A DNA stretch of 64,000 nt from Nanobdellota archaeon. GTDB taxonomy: Archaea > Nanobdellota > Nanobdellia > Parvarchaeales > Parvarchaeaceae. Under the pieces are notes generated by a model. The model had not been told where the DNA came from. It saw only the letters and a list, made by a program, of their open reading frames with translations, and did no database searches. Below are positions 4,683 to 58,956 of this stretch, piece after piece (within the stretch, counting starts at the first letter, position 1; every line of letters begins with the position of its first letter). The stretch spans positions 4,498-68,497 of the forward strand of contig JAJZBD010000005.1 in NCBI GenBank assembly GCA_021799085.1, written 5' to 3'. The translations under genes were made by a program, and so were the position numbers.

Positions 4683-4794
4683 TGGGGTTGCCAGGATTTG
4701 AACCTGGGTCAAGCGGTTTCTTCTTAATCATCCTTAACGTCATTTTTCCAGACAAGCTGGAGCCGCCTATTCTGCCTGGTTAGACTACAACCCC
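4683..4794 (-). tRNA. tRNA-Trp (anticodon CCA) with ~39-nt intron in the anticodon loop (approx 4718..4756)
   Basis: Acceptor GGGGTTG/CAACCCC, T-arm CCAGG-TTCAAAT-CCTGG. Anticodon stem GGCGG/CCGCT with loop CTCCAG|intron|A. CCA not encoded. Confidence 0.7.
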
Positions 4795-5325
4795 TTAAGT
4801 GAATATTTTATACTTATCCTTATTTTCGAGTTCTTCTTCTATTCTTGCTTCTATGCTTTTTGCTATGCCCGATGTAAAACCCACTCTTTCATCAAAATCA
4901 CTGTAGGATTTGAATTCTCCCTTATTCCGTTCTTCTATGATTTTCTGTACCATTTTTTTACCAGCACCAGGTATAAGTGACAATGAATGCAGTCTTACGT
5001 TTATAGGCCCCAACCTATTTATTATTGATATGTAATTTGCCTCATTCTGGCTTACAATCTCATGCACCTTATCCGTGAGCATTTGAAGGCCATTTCCATT
5101 TAGTTTATCAGGGGTTATCCTTTGTATTATATGGTGTACTTCATCCCTTTTGTTTTCTCCTATGTAGACTTTCATTCCCGGTTCTACTTTTACGTCTTTT
5201 TTGAGGGCCACAAGCAATAATCCAAGTGAATCTGTAAGAACTATTGCAGTAGCTTTCCTATCCTTTGAATCTTGCAGACCAAAGGGAAGGTATTCTAAAA
5301 CATAAGCGTATTCGTCTTTTCCCAT
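4795..5325 (-). CDS. DUF655-family nucleic-acid-binding protein (conserved neighbour of rpoF)
   Basis: 176 aa; position downstream of L21e-RpoF as in many archaea; HhH-like GAGKKM segment. Confidence 0.55.
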   Translation of the reverse strand: MGKDEYAYVLEYLPFGLQDSKDRKATAIVLTDSLGLLLVALKKDVKVEPGMKVYIGENKRDEVHHIIQRITPDKLNGNGLQMLTDKVHEIVSQNEANYISIINRLGPINVRLHSLSLIPGAGKKMVQKIIEERNKGEFKSYSDFDERVGFTSGIAKSIEARIEEELENKDKYKIFT

Positions 5326-5966: not shown

Positions 5967-6045
5967 AATTCTATTTTATAAAGCTCCTTAGTATTTATAC
6001 TTTTTTAAGCGCGAGTACAAGTGCGGATTTGAACTGGCAGTAAAG

Positions 6046-6128
6046 TGCAGAGGGAGGGATTTGAACCCTCGAAGGCCTAAGCCATAAGGTCCTTAGCCTT
6101 ACACGTTTGACCGCTTCGCTACCTCTGC
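6046..6128 (-). tRNA. tRNA-Leu, type II (long variable arm), anticodon read as AAG
   Basis: Acceptor GCAGAGG/CCTCTGC, T-arm GAGGG-TTCAAAT-CCCTC. Anticodon stem TAAGG/CCTTA with loop CTAAGGA. Near-identical copy at 33204..33286. Confidence 0.7.
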
Positions 6129-7493: not shown

Positions 7494-7784
7494 TTATAAC
7501 TTCATTATAGTTGGTAGATTTACTATAGTCTGTGAAAGCTCTTCTTTCCACAGTTTTGGACCAATTACCCCAATTTTGTCTTCAAATGCTTTATTGGAGA
7601 ATTTTACGTTACCAAGCTTCTTGTTTATAATGTCAAAATCAAATTGCAGCTTATTACGGTTAAGTATGAAATATACATCATAAAGGTCTCTTGATTTATT
7701 CCTCGAGTATATTGCTCTAACTTTTTCTGCTAGTATCTGGGGGCAGTATGAAATTAACAGATATTTTGACCTCTTTTGATGCAT
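7494..7784 (-). CDS. hypothetical protein with AbiEii/DUF1814-like motif; possibly a 5'-truncated remnant
   Basis: 96 aa; ...AEKVRAIYSRNKSRDLYDVYFIL resembles the conserved EKL...R..RDLYDL core of AbiEii nucleotidyltransferase toxins. The expected N-terminal part is absent; the ORF abuts tRNA-Pro. Confidence 0.3.
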   Translation of the reverse strand: MHQKRSKYLLISYCPQILAEKVRAIYSRNKSRDLYDVYFILNRNKLQFDFDIINKKLGNVKFSNKAFEDKIGVIGPKLWKEELSQTIVNLPTIMKL

Positions 7785-7898: not shown

Positions 7899-8930
7899 CT
7901 AATTAATCTTTCTGTATTCAGGGTAAGTACCGATTTGCATTATTACACTATCAGTTTTAACTGCTACTCCTTTTTTAACGGTTTTTATTTCCTCTGTCGA
8001 CAATACAGATTTGCCGAGTGCTATAAGCTCTCCTTTCAGTGTCATTATCCCTATGATTTCATCTTTTTCGAAATTAGTAAGTTTAACTATACCTGGAACA
8101 GCAAGTGGAGAACCATGACATATTGGATCTACTGCTGTATCGGAGATGAAAACCTTTGGTAAAAAGTCTATCGCTGACTCTATGCTGCCAAGGCATTTGT
8201 TTAACAGCCTATCATCATTTTCCTTTTCATAAAAATAGACTGCATCCTCTAAATCTTGCAGTGTAACCAAGTTGTCTTTTTCTGACAACGTTGAAACCTT
8301 TGTTCTTCTTAGCTCCGTCATGTGTGCACCAACTTTTAGCTCTTCCCCCATGTCATGTATGAGCTTTCTTATGTATGTTCCAGATTCAACGCCAACTTTA
8401 AAAAGTACATTCTTTCCGTCTATCTCTAATATCTCGGAATAGTATATTTCTCTCTGTCGATACTGCCTTTTAACATGCGATCTAACGGGAGGCAACTGCA
8501 TTATTTTTCCTATGAATTTATTGAACGTATCTCTAAGTAGTTGCTCATCAACTTCACTGTGCAGATGCATCAGAGCTATGTATTCCTTTCCTCCAAAAAG
8601 AAGCACTGGGAGAACCTTCGTAGCGTTGTTTATGGCCAGCGGCAAAAGACCGGTTACGTTGGGATTTCTTCAATCTTCTAAAGTCCCTGAGTAACCCATC
8701 TTCTTGGCACCTAATGTTGCCATAAGGTTCTTTGCTATGTAGGCTGCGGTCTTTGACCTTATACCTGATGGCTTGTCCAGCAGTATAAAACCGTAGTTTA
8801 TCCTCTCCTTTATGCTTCTGTCCTTTGGAGCTTTGCCGTATCTGCTGTCGGTTTCTTCCTCTCTCAAGGAAAAGATTTCATGCTTGAAATCCTCCAAAGG
8901 CAGTTTCATTTCATTTAATCGTAGGTTCAA
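7899..8930 (-). CDS. cbf5: H/ACA RNP pseudouridine synthase Cbf5 (TruB + PUA domains), interrupted by in-frame TGA at 8670..8672
   Basis: N-terminal part (8670..8930) ends KKMGYSGTLED*. The same frame continues RNPNVTGLLPLAINNATK...EYIALMHLH... and into a PUA domain. Matches Cbf5 GHxGTLDPKVTGxLPVAL...KEYxxLMHLH. Confidence 0.75.
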
Positions 8931-9019: not shown

Positions 9020-9580
9020 TCAATTATTCGTCTTTTGCTGGTGCATTATGTAATCGGAGCAGAGCTGCACAACACTCTCTAAGTCTATATTCGAAGAATC
9101 AATAACCAAATCAAAGGGAGTAAAATCTTTGTCTATTTCTATCCCGTATATTTTTTTGTAGATTTGTTTTGTAAGCAAGTCCTTCTGCTTCATAAACTTC
9201 AAGGCTTCGCTGAAGCTTATCTTGTCGCGGATACTTACTCTTTTTGCCCTAACATTTTCGTCCGCTTTTATGTATATTTTTATAGTATCCTTATCCTTTA
9301 TCTTCCAAGGTGCTACCCAGCTATCAAGAACTACATCCTTTTTTGTCTTAAAAAATGAAAGAATAAACGAATCAAGCCTTTTGTCATACTGCGGGTTTTT
9401 CAGCCTGAACTTCACCGCTTCTATCCCTTTTTTTGACTCCCAAACCATAAAATCTTTTTTAGGAAGCAAATTCTTCAGTTTAGAACTTGCGGAAAAATAT
9501 TCAATCCCAAAGTTAAGAGCAAGAGTGGTTGCAACGCTTGATTTACCTGAAGCTGTTAGTCCTGAAACTATCACTTTCAT
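9020..9580 (-). CDS. cmk: cytidylate kinase (archaeal type)
   Basis: 186 aa; P-loop SGLTASGKSS; C-terminal YGIEIDKDFTPFDLVIDS like archaeal Cmk; conserved cmk-cbf5 neighbourhood. Confidence 0.7.
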   Translation of the reverse strand: MKVIVSGLTASGKSSVATTLALNFGIEYFSASSKLKNLLPKKDFMVWESKKGIEAVKFRLKNPQYDKRLDSFILSFFKTKKDVVLDSWVAPWKIKDKDTIKIYIKADENVRAKRVSIRDKISFSEALKFMKQKDLLTKQIYKKIYGIEIDKDFTPFDLVIDSSNIDLESVVQLCSDYIMHQQKTNN

Positions 9581-12500
9581 GATTGATTAATGGGCGTATT
9601 ATTTATAAGTTTGCTGTAGTTTGAAAATACTGCAGGTAGGTAGCTTAAATTAGCGCAGTAGTTTTGAGCTGAGGGCGAAACAGAACATTCTCCTGTAAGC
9701 ATGTATTTGCTAAGCACAGTATAGTTTATCTGATAAACATTTACGTTTGTGAGCACCTGGTTTTCTATGCTTAACAAAGAGTTTACCGGCAGGTTATCAC
9801 TGTAAAGTAACTTGAAGCCGGGTATGCTTTCATTTAGCAAATAAAGCTTGTCAAACAATGTATCCAGCGTTTCATTCGGCATGTACAACAAAGCAGGGCC
9901 GTTACCAAACTGTGACATGTTTATTGGGAGAATCTCATAGCCACCTGGCGCTTGAGGTACACCTCCGATGTGGAGATCGACTGAATTTGTAGCATTCAAA
10001 AGCATCATCCCACCCGGTATGTCGTTATTTGCGACTTCTTTACAACCTACACTGTAAACACAGTTGTAATCCAAAGGCAACGGATTAGAGAACTGCGCAG
10101 TAAGCTCATCATATATTATACCGTATGGATTGCCCATGCTTGTGATTACTCCATTGCTGCTTGCATTAAGCGGCAGAAGTATCTCGACTAAAAGATCATT
10201 ATTTGCATTGCCCGGCAAACCAGGTATTGTTACATTTGAGTATAAAGGAGCTATCTGTCCATTTACGTTTCCAAATTCAAGTAGGTACCTGTAACTTTCG
10301 TTTCCTATGTTTTGACTGTTTACAGTTACATTGGTTTCCGTCATTGGAGTAAAAGATGTTGGCTTCAAAGCGATAGTTGATATGGCAGAGAACTTCTCTA
10401 CTTCACTGCCACTTATTACAGCATAAGTAGGCTGATGAATGAAGTGAAGATAAGTTGAATAGATGTAAGGTGAGGTTGCCTCAAAGAAGTATTTAGCTAT
10501 CATTGATTGGTAACCATAAGCATTACTTCCGTCGGCTACAGCCGTTCTATTGGCTATTGCTTCTTCCCAATAACCATAATCCCACCATGAGATTATTGAG
10601 GTATTGACAGGAGTATTCTGGCTAATCCACTGCATGGTAGGCCCCCAAAGCAGCAATCCGCTACCGCTGGATTGTGCAGTTTGATACGATAATGAAAGAC
10701 TGGAATGAAGATCTGCAGCAACGAAAGCTATTGCTATTATGATTATAACTGCTGAAACAACTGCCATGTTCCTTGGAGAATTCTTAAGGAATCTGTTCGT
10801 AAGGTCTATTGAGCCTCTGAAGAAATAAACTATTGCAAACGGTATTATTATTGCAGCCGCTAATTCAGTCGGCTCAAGAAGCCTGCTCTCAACGTTTGAA
10901 AGTATAACTGTTGCAACAAAGAAAAAGAATGGTACTATCGCAAGCAAAGAAAGCAAATTCACGTCTTCCTGCTTGTCAAATGCAAACTCCAGTAGGAATA
11001 TGACTACAAGTGCCACAGCGCCGTATTTGTAGTTGTTTGCAGATGAATTCATGTTCCATATAACAATAAGCATTATCAACGAAATAAAGGTAAGGAATAA
11101 CACAAGGCTTAGCAATCTCTTTGATTCTATCTCATTTTTATGCAGGAACATGTAACCTAAAGGTATAAAATCCAAAGCTATGAATATAAACAGGAATGAA
11201 TATGAAGTTGCATTATAGCTGAATGTTCCCCCGTTAAGCATGAGTATAAAAGGAACGCTTAAAAGGAAAGGTATATACCAATGCTTAAACCGTTTCAGTA
11301 CAATATAAAGAAGAAATACCGCACCTGCACAGAATAAAAGGAAATTTATGCCTAATGAACCTATAAGAAAATTGAAATCCTGTACTCTCTGAGTTAAATC
11401 CAGTGGTGCATATTCGGCAATTGTTTCTGTAACTGGATTTACTATACCCACCCCTAATGGATGAATGAATTCGGATGCAATTCTTGAAAATGCATGCTTT
11501 AAAGTATTCAGGCCAGTGAGAGCAACCAAAACAAAGGAAAGAATCAAACTGTAGATGGCAACTGAAAAGCCGTTGTTTATAAGCGGTATTTTAAGCTTAT
11601 GCTTGTATCTGTCATAAACTATCAGCTTAAAGAGCACTAAAACGTAAGAAAACAACATTGGGTAATAAAGAGCACTGTGTATAACATCGGAGAAAGTAAA
11701 AGTAACAAAGCTTACCTTTATAGGGACCCATATTGCAAATAGAATGTAGGCAAGCAGGTCTCCTTTTTTTGCATAACCTAGCAAAACAATTATTATATAT
11801 ATTATTGGTATCACAAGTATAAGATACTCGCTGTATCCACTTGCAGCAGTCGCTAATCCTGTAGCTATTCCTGTAGCCAAACCGTAAATCATTTTGCTCT
11901 TAGTCCTTTTTGATTTTAGTGATTTTGACAGGAAGAAAATTGCCAGCAGGATAAACATAAAACCAAGAGATGTTTTCTGCGTAAATCCAGCAGTAGAACG
12001 GCTTAAAAAAGTAAGAAAAGCTGGTAGAATAAATGCACTTATGCTTGCCACCCAGTAATCGCCAAACAGCTCCAACGCTATAAGGAAAAGAAGCAGGGCC
12101 GAAAAGATAGCAAAGAATGCCGGTAGGAACATGAAGGATGTCATTGGTACTGCGCCTTTCACTATTGGATCAACAAGCCTTGCAGAATACGCACCAAAGA
12201 ATGATACCAAGAGTTCATCTCCTCTGGAAGGAAGACCTATTGGTAGATACTCCAAATAGTTTACTGCTGGAACGTTACCAGTTTTAAGGACATTCTGCAT
12301 TTGTATGTAAAACGTGTAAGGATCCAAACCTGAAAGAGAACCTCCCATACCTAGATAATTATTCCCTATCAGCGGAGAGTTTGACTGCAAGGGATTTAGC
12401 AAAGCCGGGATACTTGCAGTGTGTATATACCAGCCTACTGTTACGGCAAGTATAAGAAGCAAGTAAAATAAGACTTTTTTCTTTATTAGAATATTGTAAG

Positions 12501-12759
12501 CGGCATTGCCGAAACTTTTAAGACCAGATAAATTCAATTCTATCTCTACTTCACTCACTTTTTTCTTGGAAACTTCTTCTTTTACCTGCTCTAGTTTTTC
12601 TGATTCCTTTTTCAGCAGGTTTATCTTCTCTTCCTCTTTCTTTAACTCTGCTTCCTCTCTTTTAACCTGAACTTCCTCCTTTTTTATTTCCTGCTCTATC
12701 TTTCTTTCCTCTTTGGAAGCATCCTGCTCGATTCTCTTAAGTTCGTCATTTTCGGCCAT
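9577..12759 (-). CDS. aglB: oligosaccharyltransferase AglB (STT3 family)
   Basis: 1060 aa, 13 TM N-terminal domain, WWDYGYW motif, long N/S-rich C-terminal domain. Unusual E/K-rich ~75-aa N-terminal extension. Confidence 0.8.
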   Translation of the reverse strand: MAENDELKRIEQDASKEERKIEQEIKKEEVQVKREEAELKKEEEKINLLKKESEKLEQVKEEVSKKKVSEVEIELNLSGLKSFGNAAYNILIKKKVLFYLLLILAVTVGWYIHTASIPALLNPLQSNSPLIGNNYLGMGGSLSGLDPYTFYIQMQNVLKTGNVPAVNYLEYLPIGLPSRGDELLVSFFGAYSARLVDPIVKGAVPMTSFMFLPAFFAIFSALLLFLIALELFGDYWVASISAFILPAFLTFLSRSTAGFTQKTSLGFMFILLAIFFLSKSLKSKRTKSKMIYGLATGIATGLATAASGYSEYLILVIPIIYIIIVLLGYAKKGDLLAYILFAIWVPIKVSFVTFTFSDVIHSALYYPMLFSYVLVLFKLIVYDRYKHKLKIPLINNGFSVAIYSLILSFVLVALTGLNTLKHAFSRIASEFIHPLGVGIVNPVTETIAEYAPLDLTQRVQDFNFLIGSLGINFLLFCAGAVFLLYIVLKRFKHWYIPFLLSVPFILMLNGGTFSYNATSYSFLFIFIALDFIPLGYMFLHKNEIESKRLLSLVLFLTFISLIMLIVIWNMNSSANNYKYGAVALVVIFLLEFAFDKQEDVNLLSLLAIVPFFFFVATVILSNVESRLLEPTELAAAIIIPFAIVYFFRGSIDLTNRFLKNSPRNMAVVSAVIIIIAIAFVAADLHSSLSLSYQTAQSSGSGLLLWGPTMQWISQNTPVNTSIISWWDYGYWEEAIANRTAVADGSNAYGYQSMIAKYFFEATSPYIYSTYLHFIHQPTYAVISGSEVEKFSAISTIALKPTSFTPMTETNVTVNSQNIGNESYRYLLEFGNVNGQIAPLYSNVTIPGLPGNANNDLLVEILLPLNASSNGVITSMGNPYGIIYDELTAQFSNPLPLDYNCVYSVGCKEVANNDIPGGMMLLNATNSVDLHIGGVPQAPGGYEILPINMSQFGNGPALLYMPNETLDTLFDKLYLLNESIPGFKLLYSDNLPVNSLLSIENQVLTNVNVYQINYTVLSKYMLTGECSVSPSAQNYCANLSYLPAVFSNYSKLINNTPINQS

Positions 12760-58857: not shown

Positions 58858-58956
58858 TGGCCTGGCCGAGATTTGGACTCGGGACCCCTGCTTTTCCTAA
58901 AATGTTGGAGCATACTCATATAAGAGCAGTGCTCTACCGGGCTAAGCTACCAGGCC
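58858..58956 (-). tRNA. tRNA-Ile, anticodon read as UAU, with ~25-nt intron (approx 58894..58918)
   Basis: Acceptor GGCCTGG/CCAGGCC, T-arm CCGAG-TCCAAAT-CTCGG. Anticodon stem CTGCT...AGCAG separated by 32 nt; every splice choice I tried gives TAT at 34-36. Confidence 0.6.

What the first reader, a model, noticed from the sequence alone, without database searches (positions are those of the whole stretch)
8664..8678. cbf5 carries an in-frame TGA inside a 12-nt insertion that sits exactly in the catalytic GTLDP motif
The Cbf5 (H/ACA pseudouridine synthase) gene is split by a single in-frame TGA at 8670..8672. In mRNA sense the region reads GGG ACU UUA GAA GAU UGA AGA AAU CCC AAC GUA ACC GGU = G T L E D * R N P N V T G. 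Deleting the 12 nt AGAUUGAAGAAA restores GGG ACU UUA GAU CCC AAC GUA ACC GGU = GTLDPNVTG, the canonical TruB/Cbf5 catalytic motif followed by LLPLA...KEYIALMHLH. So the gene is intact apart from a 12-nt, stop-containing insert with a short GAAGA..GAAGA direct repeat. TGA acts as a normal stop elsewhere in the window (all long ORFs are TGA-free), so genome-wide recoding is unlikely. Possibilities: (i) a small element removed at RNA level; cbf5 pre-mRNA introns spliced by the tRNA endonuclease are known in some Crenarchaeota, but 12 nt is at or below the BHB minimum; (ii) a split gene, with the downstream part starting at TTG 8645; (iii) a recent pseudogene; (iv) an assembly or tandem-duplication artefact. 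Any of these is notable for an otherwise near-universal archaeal gene.
Basis: partly seen in the sequence, partly recalled or inferred. Interest (0 to 1): 0.75.

Follow-up and report, generated by a model that had tools for sequence, protein, structure and literature searches.

The report
Twelve-base intron inside archaeal cbf5 gene
The stop codon that seems to break this archaeon's pseudouridine-synthase gene lies in a 12-base RNA intron of the type removed by the tRNA-splicing enzyme; this intron was known only from some Crenarchaeota, and this is the smallest copy seen and apparently the first reported outside that group.

Summary
cbf5 (minus strand, 8909..7899) has an in-frame TGA at 8670-8672 inside a 12-nt insert in the GTLDP catalytic motif.

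The window is from Candidatus Parvarchaeum (ARMAN-4 lineage, DPANN). The insert is a miniature bulge-helix-bulge-type intron, not an artefact, pseudogene or split gene.
- It lies between letters 1 and 2 of the catalytic Asp codon, the published site of the crenarchaeal cbf5 pre-mRNA intron.
- Cutting after the second nucleotide of each bulge removes AAGAUUGAAGAA (8677..8666) and restores a complete 332-aa Cbf5.
- All 13 Parvarchaeum species genomes keep it, and both exons are under purifying selection (dN/dS 0.02-0.17).
- 74 distinct junctions (inserts 12-39 nt; DPANN, Bathyarchaeota, others) share the site. The 4-bp central helix is fully paired in 68 of them, with U-A/C-G swaps.
- Longer copies form a textbook hBHBh' motif. 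The 12-nt copy has lost the inner hairpin.

Splicing itself is inferred; no transcript data were available.

The literature searched places this intron only in Sulfolobales/Desulfurococcales (16-44 nt). The ARMAN-4 endonuclease is reported as an alpha4 type lacking the loops linked to relaxed substrates, so it should not cut this motif. That is testable.

Verdict: new member of a known kind, moderate interest.

The parts
8678..8909 (-). cbf5 exon 1: from ATG at 8909 to the G that is the first letter of the catalytic Asp codon (8678). Encodes MKLPLEDF...GYSGTL plus the first letter of the Asp codon.
   Evidence: NCBIfam Cbf5 model positions 3-67 match this piece.
8666..8677 (-). 12-nt intron AAGAUUGAAGAA, which contains the in-frame UGA (8672..8670).
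   Evidence: Coordinates. It is conserved in L001-L013, with only its third nucleotide (in the loop) varying, through G, A, C and U.
7899..8665 (-). cbf5 exon 2: from AU (letters 2 and 3 of the Asp codon) through to the TAG stop.
   Evidence: The spliced product aligns without a gap across the junction to P. abyssi Cbf5 2aus_C. It scores 362 bits on the Cbf5 equivalog model, whose cutoff is 242.
8680..8683 (-). Central helix H, 5' strand (CUUU, in exon 1). It pairs with 8668-8671.
   Evidence: Covariation across 74 junctions is, and in alignment A2.
8668..8671 (-). Central helix H, 3' strand (GAAG, inside the intron). It supplies the G and A of the UGA stop.
8677..8679 (-). 5' splice-site 'bulge' AG|A, with the cut predicted between 8678 and 8677. 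In this 12-nt copy it is part of the terminal loop, because there is no inner helix h'.
   Evidence: The cleavage rule (between bulge nucleotides 2 and 3) is from PMC2738675.
8665..8667 (-). 3' splice-site bulge AA|A, with the cut predicted between 8666 and 8665.
   Evidence: AAA is the 3' bulge in 55 of 74 junctions.
8684..8687 (-). Outer helix h, 5' strand (GGGA; the Gly codon plus the first letter of the Thr codon). It pairs with 8661-8664.
   Evidence: The intron-less relatives L147 and L148 use GGT...CCA here instead.
8661..8664 (-). Outer helix h, 3' strand (UCCC; the last letter of the Asp codon plus the Pro codon).
   Evidence: The CCC-to-CCU change in L011 and L012 keeps a G-U pair.
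8691..8696 (-). Possible extension of the exon-exon helix (GGUUAC), paired with 8652-8657 (GUAACC) across a 3x3 internal loop.
   Evidence: Predicted. Covariation is not distinguishable from codon constraint: 35 of 82 junctions are fully paired, against a permuted mean of 31 and maximum of 40.
8652..8657 (-). Partner strand of the possible outer helix extension.

Best explanation
The 12 nt at 8677..8666 are a miniature archaeal bulge-helix-bulge-type (BHB) intron in the cbf5 pre-mRNA.

Structure (shown by folding and comparison): exon-1 bases CUUU pair with intron bases GAAG to form the 4-bp central helix H. Exon bases GGGA and UCCC form the flanking helix h. A 3-nt bulge AAA carries the 3' splice site. 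The 5' splice site (AG|A) lies at the equivalent position, two nucleotides 3' of helix H, but in the terminal loop, because the inner hairpin h' found in longer homologues has been lost. This makes it a bulge-helix-loop form.

Mechanism (inferred): the tRNA-splicing endonuclease EndA cuts after the second nucleotide of each bulge. The RtcB-type ligase joins G to AU, recreating the catalytic Asp codon. The spliced mRNA then encodes a normal 332-aa Cbf5. Unspliced mRNA would yield only a 79-aa fragment.

The intron is orthologous in position to the cbf5 intron of Sulfolobales and Desulfurococcales. It appears ancestral within Parvarchaeota, with at least one later loss.
For: (1) Site. The excision needed to restore GTLDP lies between letters 1 and 2 of the catalytic Asp codon. 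That is the published crenarchaeal cbf5 exon-intron boundary, with cleavage between bulge nucleotides 2 and 3 (PMC2738675).

(2) Fold. The minimum-energy and consensus folds give h (4 bp), a 3-nt bulge, then H and a loop. The z-scores are -3.8 for 81 nt and -2.8 for 51 nt.

(3) Conservation. The insert is present in 13 species-level Parvarchaeum genomes and varies only at one loop position. dN/dS is 0.08-0.17 for exon 1 and 0.02-0.065 for exon 2, with synonymous divergence up to about 0.7.

(4) Homologous inserts found through protein hits, so unbiased at the DNA level. They are 12, 14, 16 and 21 nt long, and H occurs as CUUU/GAAG, CUUU/AAAG, CCCU/GGGG, CUCU/GGAG, CCUU/GAGG and CUCU/AGAG.

(5) Wider sample, 74 unique junctions. 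H is fully paired in 68. Shifted registers give 0-1 fully paired junctions. Permuted partners give a mean of 40 and a maximum of 49.

(6) Inner hairpin. Introns of about 17 nt or more mostly carry an inner hairpin lying exactly between the bulge nucleotide and H.

(7) Unguided prediction. RNAalifold returns a textbook hBHBh' for the 17-21-nt class. On that alignment 97.1% of cells are paired against 90.3% when shuffled (0 of 500 shuffles reach it). There are 17 double-change cells against 4.1 expected (0 of 500). Slid controls reach at most 60%.

(8) Insert lengths in relatives are often not multiples of 3, so the insert must be excised. Splicing restores a full-length reading frame in every locus.

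(9) The spliced product aligns without a gap to solved Cbf5 structures and passes the Cbf5 equivalog cutoff.

(10) Intron-less relatives lack the GGGA/UCCC helix, using GGT...CCA instead.
Against: There is no transcript evidence. No spliced, full-length protein of this clade exists in the protein database: every hit at 73% identity or more is 260 aa or shorter.

The 12-nt copy has no h' helix, so its 5' site lies in a loop. Bulge-helix-loop substrates without a tRNA body were not cut by the model alpha4 (M. jannaschii) or alpha'2 (A. fulgidus) enzymes (PMC2724299).

The ARMAN-4/5 EndA is reported as a typical alpha4 of 177 aa (PMC3239211). It is also reported to lack the L1, L2 and L3 specificity loops (PMC5829648).

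Neither EndA nor RtcB is encoded in this window.

In the metagenome sample the search pattern fixed GGGAC and ATCC, so helix h and the first H pair were not tested independently there.
Confidence: 0.87

Rival explanations
1. The 12 nt are removed or skipped at RNA or translation level, but not by the canonical EndA/RtcB pathway. Examples would be an unknown nuclease, or a helper factor needed because the alpha4 enzyme cannot handle a bulge-helix-loop.
For: The ARMAN-4 EndA is reported as alpha4 without any specificity loop. Model alpha4 enzymes do not cut a mini bulge-helix-loop substrate.
Against: The geometry is exactly that of EndA substrates, with a 4-bp H, 3-nt bulges and cuts after bulge nucleotide 2. 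It grades continuously into canonical hBHBh' in homologues. No other archaeal mechanism is known that uses this geometry.
Confidence: 0.06
2. Split gene: two polypeptides (79 aa, and 248 aa from TTG 8645) are made separately and assemble into an active Cbf5, as with Nanoarchaeum-type split genes.
For: Two ORFs are called in every genome. DPANN archaea are known for split genes (background knowledge).
Against: The catalytic Asp would be lost or displaced: the fragments end GTLED*, GTLV*, GTLEA*, GTLE* or GTLEQ* in different lineages. The downstream start codon and its position are not conserved. The gap is only 12-39 nt and carries a covarying RNA structure that a split gene does not need. Synonymous sites in GGGACUUUAG...AUCCC are frozen.
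Confidence: 0.03
3. Stop-codon read-through or recoding of UGA gives a Cbf5 with a 4-residue insertion (GTLEDxRNP).
For: In this genome the insert is in frame (12 nt).
Against: UGA is a normal stop here. Four extra residues would sit in the catalytic loop, which aligns without a gap to solved Cbf5 structures only after excision. Homologous inserts of 13, 14, 16, 17, 19 and 20 nt cannot be read through. The insert's 'codons' are conserved as RNA pairs, not as amino acids.
Confidence: 0.02
4. Pseudogene, or an assembly or tandem-duplication artefact.
For: There is an in-frame stop in an essential gene and a short GAAGA..GAAGA repeat.
Against: The same insert occurs in 13 independently assembled species-level genomes, including the ARMAN-4 scaffold GG730049.1. 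dN/dS is 0.02-0.17 in both exons.
Confidence: 0.01

Closest known systems
Crenarchaeal cbf5 pre-mRNA intron (Aeropyrum, Sulfolobus and other Sulfolobales/Desulfurococcales; Watanabe 2002, Yoshinari 2006, Yokobori 2009 PMC2738675)
   Same: It is in the same gene and at the same site, between letters 1 and 2 of the catalytic Asp codon. It has the same BHB-like structure with cuts between bulge nucleotides 2 and 3. Its distribution is also patchy, with secondary loss.
   Different: The host is a DPANN archaeon (Parvarchaeota), not a crenarchaeote. The length is 12 nt, against 16-44 nt in the published table. The inner helix h' is absent. The host EndA is reported as alpha4 without specificity loops, whereas the crenarchaeal intron was linked to the hetero-oligomeric (alpha-beta)2 enzyme. 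Splicing here is not shown experimentally.
Archaeal tRNA BHB introns and their relaxed bulge-helix-loop forms (Marck and Grosjean 2003; reviews PMC6379350 and PMC5829648)
   Same: It has a 4-bp central helix, 3-nt bulges and cleavage after the second bulge nucleotide. The same genome has a tRNA-Ile(UAU) intron with an AA|A 3' bulge.
   Different: It lies in an mRNA with no tRNA body. Its flanking helix is made of coding sequence. At 12 nt it is at the lower end of intron size.
Haloferax volcanii HVO_1309 5'-UTR BHB intron (PMC7714728)
   Same: It is another mRNA processed at a BHB by EndA.
   Different: That intron is in an untranslated region and does not interrupt a codon. It is in a different gene and lineage.
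Split protein genes of Nanoarchaeum and other DPANN
   Same: Gene callers produce two adjacent or separate ORFs for one protein.
   Different: Here the two parts are 12 nt apart, in one transcript context, and separated by a conserved RNA structure. The break removes the catalytic codon rather than falling between domains.

Membership tests
cbf5 pre-mRNA BHB intron | The intron interrupts the catalytic Asp codon of Cbf5 between its first and second letters. | tested here: met
   Searches give G|AAGAUUGAAGAA|AU. The definition is from PMC2738675.
cbf5 pre-mRNA BHB intron | Excision restores an intact, full-length Cbf5 reading frame. | tested here: met
   The spliced product is 332 aa. It aligns without a gap to 2aus_C and scores 362 bits against a 242-bit cutoff.
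cbf5 pre-mRNA BHB intron | The intron is absent from mature mRNA (cDNA evidence). | not testable with these tools
   No transcript data were available. No full-length protein of this clade is in the protein database.
Archaeal BHB intron (EndA substrate), strict hBHBh' form | Two 3-nt bulges on opposite strands, separated by a 4-bp helix and flanked by helices h and h'. | tested here: not met
   h, the 3' bulge and H are present. There is no h', and the 5' site lies in an 8-nt loop (6-nt in the minimum-energy fold). Homologues with introns of about 17 nt or more do meet the strict form.
Archaeal BHB intron (EndA substrate), relaxed bulge-helix-loop form | One canonical bulge plus a 4-bp helix, with the second cut site at the symmetric position in a loop. 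| tested here: met
   The 3' bulge is AA|A. H is CUUU/GAAG. The 5' site AG|A begins directly 3' of the H strand. The definition is from PMC6379350 and PMC5829648.
Archaeal BHB intron (EndA substrate) | The structure is maintained by compensatory changes among homologues. | tested here: met
   H is fully paired in 68 of 74 junctions. Pair 2 is U-A in 30 and C-G in 43; pair 3 is U-A in 18 and C-G in 53. Shifted registers give 0-1. Alignment A2 has 17 double-change cells against 4.1 expected, reached by 0 of 500 shuffles.
Archaeal BHB intron (EndA substrate) | The host encodes an endonuclease able to cut this motif; for relaxed motifs, an (alpha-beta)2 or epsilon2 type or an enzyme with a specificity loop. 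| not tested
   EndA is not in the window. The literature reports ARMAN-4/5 EndA as alpha4, 177 aa, lacking the L1, L2 and L3 loops. On published criteria this feature would not be met.
Archaeal BHB intron (EndA substrate) | Cleavage at the predicted sites by EndA in vitro, and ligation by RtcB. | not testable with these tools
   This needs an experiment.
Split gene (two polypeptides) | Each part has its own conserved start and the parts together keep all catalytic residues. | tested here: not met
   The starts differ among relatives. The catalytic Asp is not conserved in either fragment.
UGA recoding or read-through | The insert is in frame and conserved as amino acids across homologues. | tested here: not met
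   Homologous inserts have lengths of 13, 14, 16, 17, 19, 20 nt and so on. UGA ends 12 of 61 long ORFs in the window.

The most novel reading that the evidence does not exclude
Parvarchaeum keeps, under strong selection, a 12-nt bulge-helix-loop intron in an essential mRNA, while its only known splicing endonuclease is an alpha4 enzyme without any of the loops thought to permit relaxed substrates. If that enzyme alone splices this intron, the current rule that links endonuclease architecture or loops to substrate range is incomplete. The same-site intron in DPANN, Bathyarchaeota and Crenarchaeota would then point either to an ancient cbf5 intron predating the DPANN/TACK split, or to a site uniquely prone to intron gain. 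It might also couple Cbf5 production to the activity of the tRNA-splicing machinery.
Probability: 0.3. Interest if true: 0.7.

Novelty: new member of a known kind. Interest (0 to 1): 0.55.

Why it matters
Annotation. In these genomes Cbf5 is called as a 248-aa protein lacking its catalytic Asp, plus an orphan 79-aa ORF. This could wrongly suggest that RNA-guided pseudouridylation is lost in these DPANN lineages.

Biology. Reviews from 2020 and 2023 still treat protein-coding BHB introns in archaea as a curiosity of a small crenarchaeal group. This window, with the 74 junctions collected, shows the same cbf5 site occupied in Parvarchaeota, other DPANN-like lineages and Bathyarchaeota. The size series runs from 39 down to 12 nt.

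Enzymology. The 12-nt Parvarchaeum copy is a natural minimal substrate in an organism whose endonuclease is predicted to be strict. That gives a direct test of the models of endonuclease specificity.

Tried and rejected
- Canonical BHB read directly from the minimum-energy fold (5' cut in the UCA internal loop, 3' cut in AAA). This would remove 23 nt, shift the frame and delete GTLD, so it was rejected in favour of the register in which H is CUUU/GAAG.
- Outer exon helix GGUUAC/GUAACC as a selected element. It could not be told apart from codon constraint.
- EndA, RtcB, Nop10, Gar1 and L7Ae in the window. None was found among 50 ORFs scanned against Pfam.
- Rfam. No family matches the junction region; the best E-values are 1.9 and 2.3.
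- Translational bypass of the T4 gene 60 kind. No take-off and landing codon pair restores GTLDP, and the idea does not transfer to relatives whose inserts have different sequences (reasoned).
- DUF655 called as two ORFs in L025, as a possible second mRNA intron. It is a frameshift in an A8 homopolymer.
- ARAGORN intron mode on the two long tRNAs. It placed the introns ambiguously and called tRNA-Ile(UAU) as Ser(tga).
- About 45% of the metagenome pattern hits were chance matches, including a recurrent tRNA-gene match (the 27-nt insert CTCAGTTGGTAGAGCAGCGGACTTTTA). They were filtered out by requiring a Cbf5 exon 2.
- Source names for distant carriers were truncated and gave no taxonomy. Only the Bathyarchaeota assignment of the main metagenome group was obtained.

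Full report
OBSERVATION. On the minus strand the Cbf5 gene reads ...GGG ACU UUA GAA GAU UGA AGA AAU CCC AAC GUA ACC GGU..., which translates as GTLED*RNPNVTG. The UGA is at 8672..8670. The ORF table shows an 86-aa ORF ending at that stop and a 248-aa ORF starting at TTG 8645. Deleting 12 nt restores GTLDPNVTG and a 332-aa protein that starts at ATG 8909. TGA ends 12 of the 61 ORFs of at least 150 aa in the window, so it is an ordinary stop codon.

ORGANISM, AND WHETHER THE INSERT IS REAL. A scan of one genome per species found 13 close relatives at 79-97% protein identity. They are labelled Candidatus Parvarchaeum, Parvarchaeota or 'Nanoarchaeota' MAGs, and they include the original ARMAN-4 scaffold GG730049.1. 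In 12 of them the match spans 1008 nt for 332 residues, which is 996 nt plus 12; the thirteenth, L011, is cut off by the end of its contig but also carries the insert. At the DNA level all 13 carry the same 12-nt insert with its TGA. The only variable position is the third intron nucleotide, where G, A, C and U all occur. Against these relatives, dN/dS is 0.08-0.17 for exon 1 and 0.02-0.065 for exon 2, while synonymous divergence reaches about 0.3-0.7. This excludes an assembly artefact and a pseudogene.

STRUCTURE. The minimum-energy fold of 51 or 81 nt around the site is more stable than shuffled sequence (z = -2.8 and -3.8). It places the insert in a hairpin. From the outside in, the fold has:
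- a helix GGUUAC/GUAACC;
- a 3x3 internal loop;
- helix h, GGGA/UCCC;
- a 3-nt bulge AAA on the 3' strand;
- helix H, CUUU/GAAG, extended by one A-U pair in the fold;
- a terminal loop.
Read as an archaeal splicing motif, the bulge AA|A follows the 3' strand of H, and AG|A follows the 5' strand of H. Cutting after the second nucleotide of each removes exactly AAGAUUGAAGAA (8677..8666) and joins G to AU, which recreates the Asp codon. The UGA exists because its G and A belong to the H strand GAAG.

LINK TO THE KNOWN INTRON. Yokobori et al. [quoted passage not shown] They also state that cleavage falls between the second and third residues of the BHB bulges (PMC2738675). That is the same site and the same rule. 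Their table lists introns of 16-44 bp in Sulfolobales and Desulfurococcales. It lists none in Thermoproteales, the two thaumarchaea or Korarchaeum.

COMPARATIVE EVIDENCE. Many more distant Cbf5 hits (52-69% identity) were about 248 aa long and began just after the catalytic motif. DNA was fetched for seven of them. In each, a 76-79-aa ORF with the DKCLD domain sits upstream, followed by an insert at the same codon position. The inserts were:

| Locus | Insert length |
|---|---|
| L016, L022, L024, L025 | 12 nt |
| L026 | 14 nt |
| L018 | 16 nt |
| L020 | 21 nt |

Helix H changes in a compensatory way across these loci: CUUU/GAAG, CUUU/AAAG, CCCU/GGGG, CUCU/GGAG, CCUU/GAGG and CUCU/AGAG.

A metagenome scan then fixed only the coding flanks and left the insert free. 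Of these, 63 passed a strict Cbf5 exon-2 filter, and 4 more were clearly Cbf5.

Over all 74 distinct junctions:
- H is fully paired in 68, and 290 of 296 cells are paired.
- Pair 2 is U-A in 30 junctions and C-G in 43. Pair 3 is U-A in 18 and C-G in 53.
- Shifted registers give 0-1 fully paired junctions.
- Permuting partners gives a mean of 40 and a maximum of 49.
- The bulges are mostly AG|A (56 of 74) and AA|A (55 of 74).

Introns of about 17 nt or more mostly contain a hairpin that starts right after the first intron nucleotide and ends right before H. Those of 12-16 nt have none. RNAalifold, given no hint, returns an exact hBHBh' for sixteen 17-21-nt examples. On that alignment 97.1% of cells pair, against 90.3% when shuffled (0 of 500 shuffles reach it). 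There are 17 double-change cells against 4.1 expected (0 of 500). Slid controls reach at most 60%. Many insert lengths are not multiples of three, yet splicing restores a full-length reading frame in every locus.

One caveat applies to the metagenome set. The search pattern fixed GGGAC and ATCC, so helix h and the first H pair are not independent evidence there. The protein-derived loci do not have that bias.

THE SPLICED PROTEIN. It aligns from residue 7 to 327 with Pyrococcus abyssi Cbf5 (2aus_C, E = 5e-90), with no gap at GYSGTLDPNVTGLLPLA / GHGGTLDPKVSGVLPVA. It scores 362 bits on the NCBIfam Cbf5 equivalog model, whose cutoff is 242. Exon 1 alone scores 39 bits.

SELECTION ON THE EXONS FOR RNA STRUCTURE. 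Within Parvarchaeum the synonymous positions of GGG ACU UUA G and AU CCC never vary, apart from CCC to CCU, which keeps a G-U pair. Neighbouring codons vary freely. Two intron-less Parvarchaeota relatives with the same gene order (AglB-cmk-cbf5) read GGT ACG TTG GAC CCA and GGT ACC TTA GAT CCA. They therefore lack the GGGA/UCCC helix.

DISTRIBUTION. A rough neighbour-joining tree of the exon-2 region puts a single intron-less clade (P0019-P0035) inside several intron-bearing Parvarchaeota clades. This suggests an ancestral intron with at least one loss. In that tree, intron status was inferred from protein length, and it was checked on DNA for six sequences. The largest metagenome group is Bathyarchaeota, and its nearest database relatives are intron-less at 74-83% identity, so presence is patchy there too.

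MECHANISM.
- Shown here by computation: the site, the structure, its conservation and covariation, and the restoration of the reading frame.
- Inferred from established knowledge of archaeal BHB introns: EndA cuts at both bulges, RtcB joins the exons, and only spliced mRNA yields active Cbf5.
- Not shown: any transcript or enzymatic evidence for Parvarchaeum.

THE OPEN PROBLEM. Fujishima et al. 2011 describe the ARMAN-4/5 endonuclease as a single 177-aa subunit, a 'typical alpha4'. Kaneta et al. [quoted passage not shown] A mini bulge-helix-loop substrate without a tRNA body is cut by the S. solfataricus heterotetramer. It is not cut by the M. jannaschii alpha4 or the A. fulgidus alpha'2 enzymes (PMC2724299). 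On published criteria, then, the Parvarchaeum enzyme should not cut this mini-intron, and yet the intron is conserved in an essential gene. Either the enzyme is broader than predicted, or a partner has been missed, or the loop mimics h'. A25 and U29 are conserved in most 12-nt copies and could form a single closing pair. This is the most interesting unresolved point, and it can be tested directly.

PRIOR KNOWLEDGE. Full-text searches found no paper combining cbf5, intron and DPANN. None reports cbf5 or protein-coding introns in Parvarchaeum or Bathyarchaeota. A 2020 paper and a 2023 review still describe the cbf5 intron as crenarchaeal and restricted to a small group of related archaea. The library is incomplete, so an earlier report cannot be excluded.

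VERDICT. The insert is real and functional. It is best explained as the smallest known member of the cbf5 BHB-intron family, here in a DPANN archaeon. It is a new member of a known kind. Interest is moderate, raised by the mismatch with the predicted endonuclease specificity and by the unexpectedly wide occurrence of the same-site intron.

Noticed in passing
L028-L143 (metagenome loci), L016-L026: The same cbf5 codon position carries inserts of 12-39 nt in many uncultivated archaea. The largest group is Bathyarchaeota, and several are DPANN-like lineages (57-66% identical to Woesearchaeota-type Cbf5). This is far beyond the Sulfolobales/Desulfurococcales range given in the literature. Gene callers split all of these genes into a DKCLD mini-ORF and a truncated Cbf5.
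   Followed up: partly
L049, L089, L094, L106, L114: Five related junctions end in ...GGGAAG or ...GGGAAA. Under the standard register they show a C-A mismatch in the first H pair. They probably have a 3-bp H or a shifted or 4-nt 3' bulge.
   Followed up: no
window 58858-58956 (-): An intron-containing tRNA found by Rfam but missed by default ARAGORN. By the BHB rule it is tRNA-Ile(UAU) with a 25-nt intron at 37/38, with H = CUUA/UAGG and a 3' bulge AA|A, the same bulge as in cbf5. ARAGORN's intron mode misplaces the intron and calls it Ser(tga).
   Followed up: partly
window 4683-4794 (-): tRNA-Trp(CCA) with a 39-nt intron. Its 3' end, ...GAAGAA|A, is identical to the 3' end of the cbf5 intron. 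Under the canonical 37/38 reading its H helix has one C-A mismatch.
   Followed up: partly
window 6045-6128 (-): tRNA-Leu with anticodon AAG (adenine at the wobble position). Fujishima et al. 2011 already reported this oddity for ARMAN-4/5, and it fits the assignment of the window to Parvarchaeum.
   Followed up: no
window 7494-7784 (-): A 96-aa ORF matching only positions 139-186 of the 238-position AbiEii toxin (nucleotidyltransferase) profile. It looks like a truncated remnant just downstream of tRNA-Pro and cbf5.
   Followed up: no
L025 4151-4682: The DUF655 gene is called as two ORFs (46 and 141 aa). The break is a frameshift in an A8 homopolymer, probably a sequencing or assembly error, and not a second intron. 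The window's own copy (4795-5325) is intact.
   Followed up: yes
L147, L148: Intron-less Parvarchaeota relatives with the same AglB-cmk-cbf5 gene order use GGT...CCA at the site. They form one clade nested among intron-bearing clades, which suggests a precise secondary loss of the intron.
   Followed up: partly
L118: Upstream of the intron-containing cbf5, an ORF runs in frame for about 370 further codons. It contains a LAGLIDADG-like stretch (LDGILNAEGGAG) and may be a homing-endonuclease-like gene next to cbf5.
   Followed up: no
window 9577-12759 (-): The 1060-aa membrane protein upstream of cmk-cbf5 was not itself scanned against Pfam. Its counterparts in most relatives have no Pfam hit on record. 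The counterpart in L025 hits STT3, the oligosaccharyltransferase family, so it is probably a divergent AglB.
   Followed up: no
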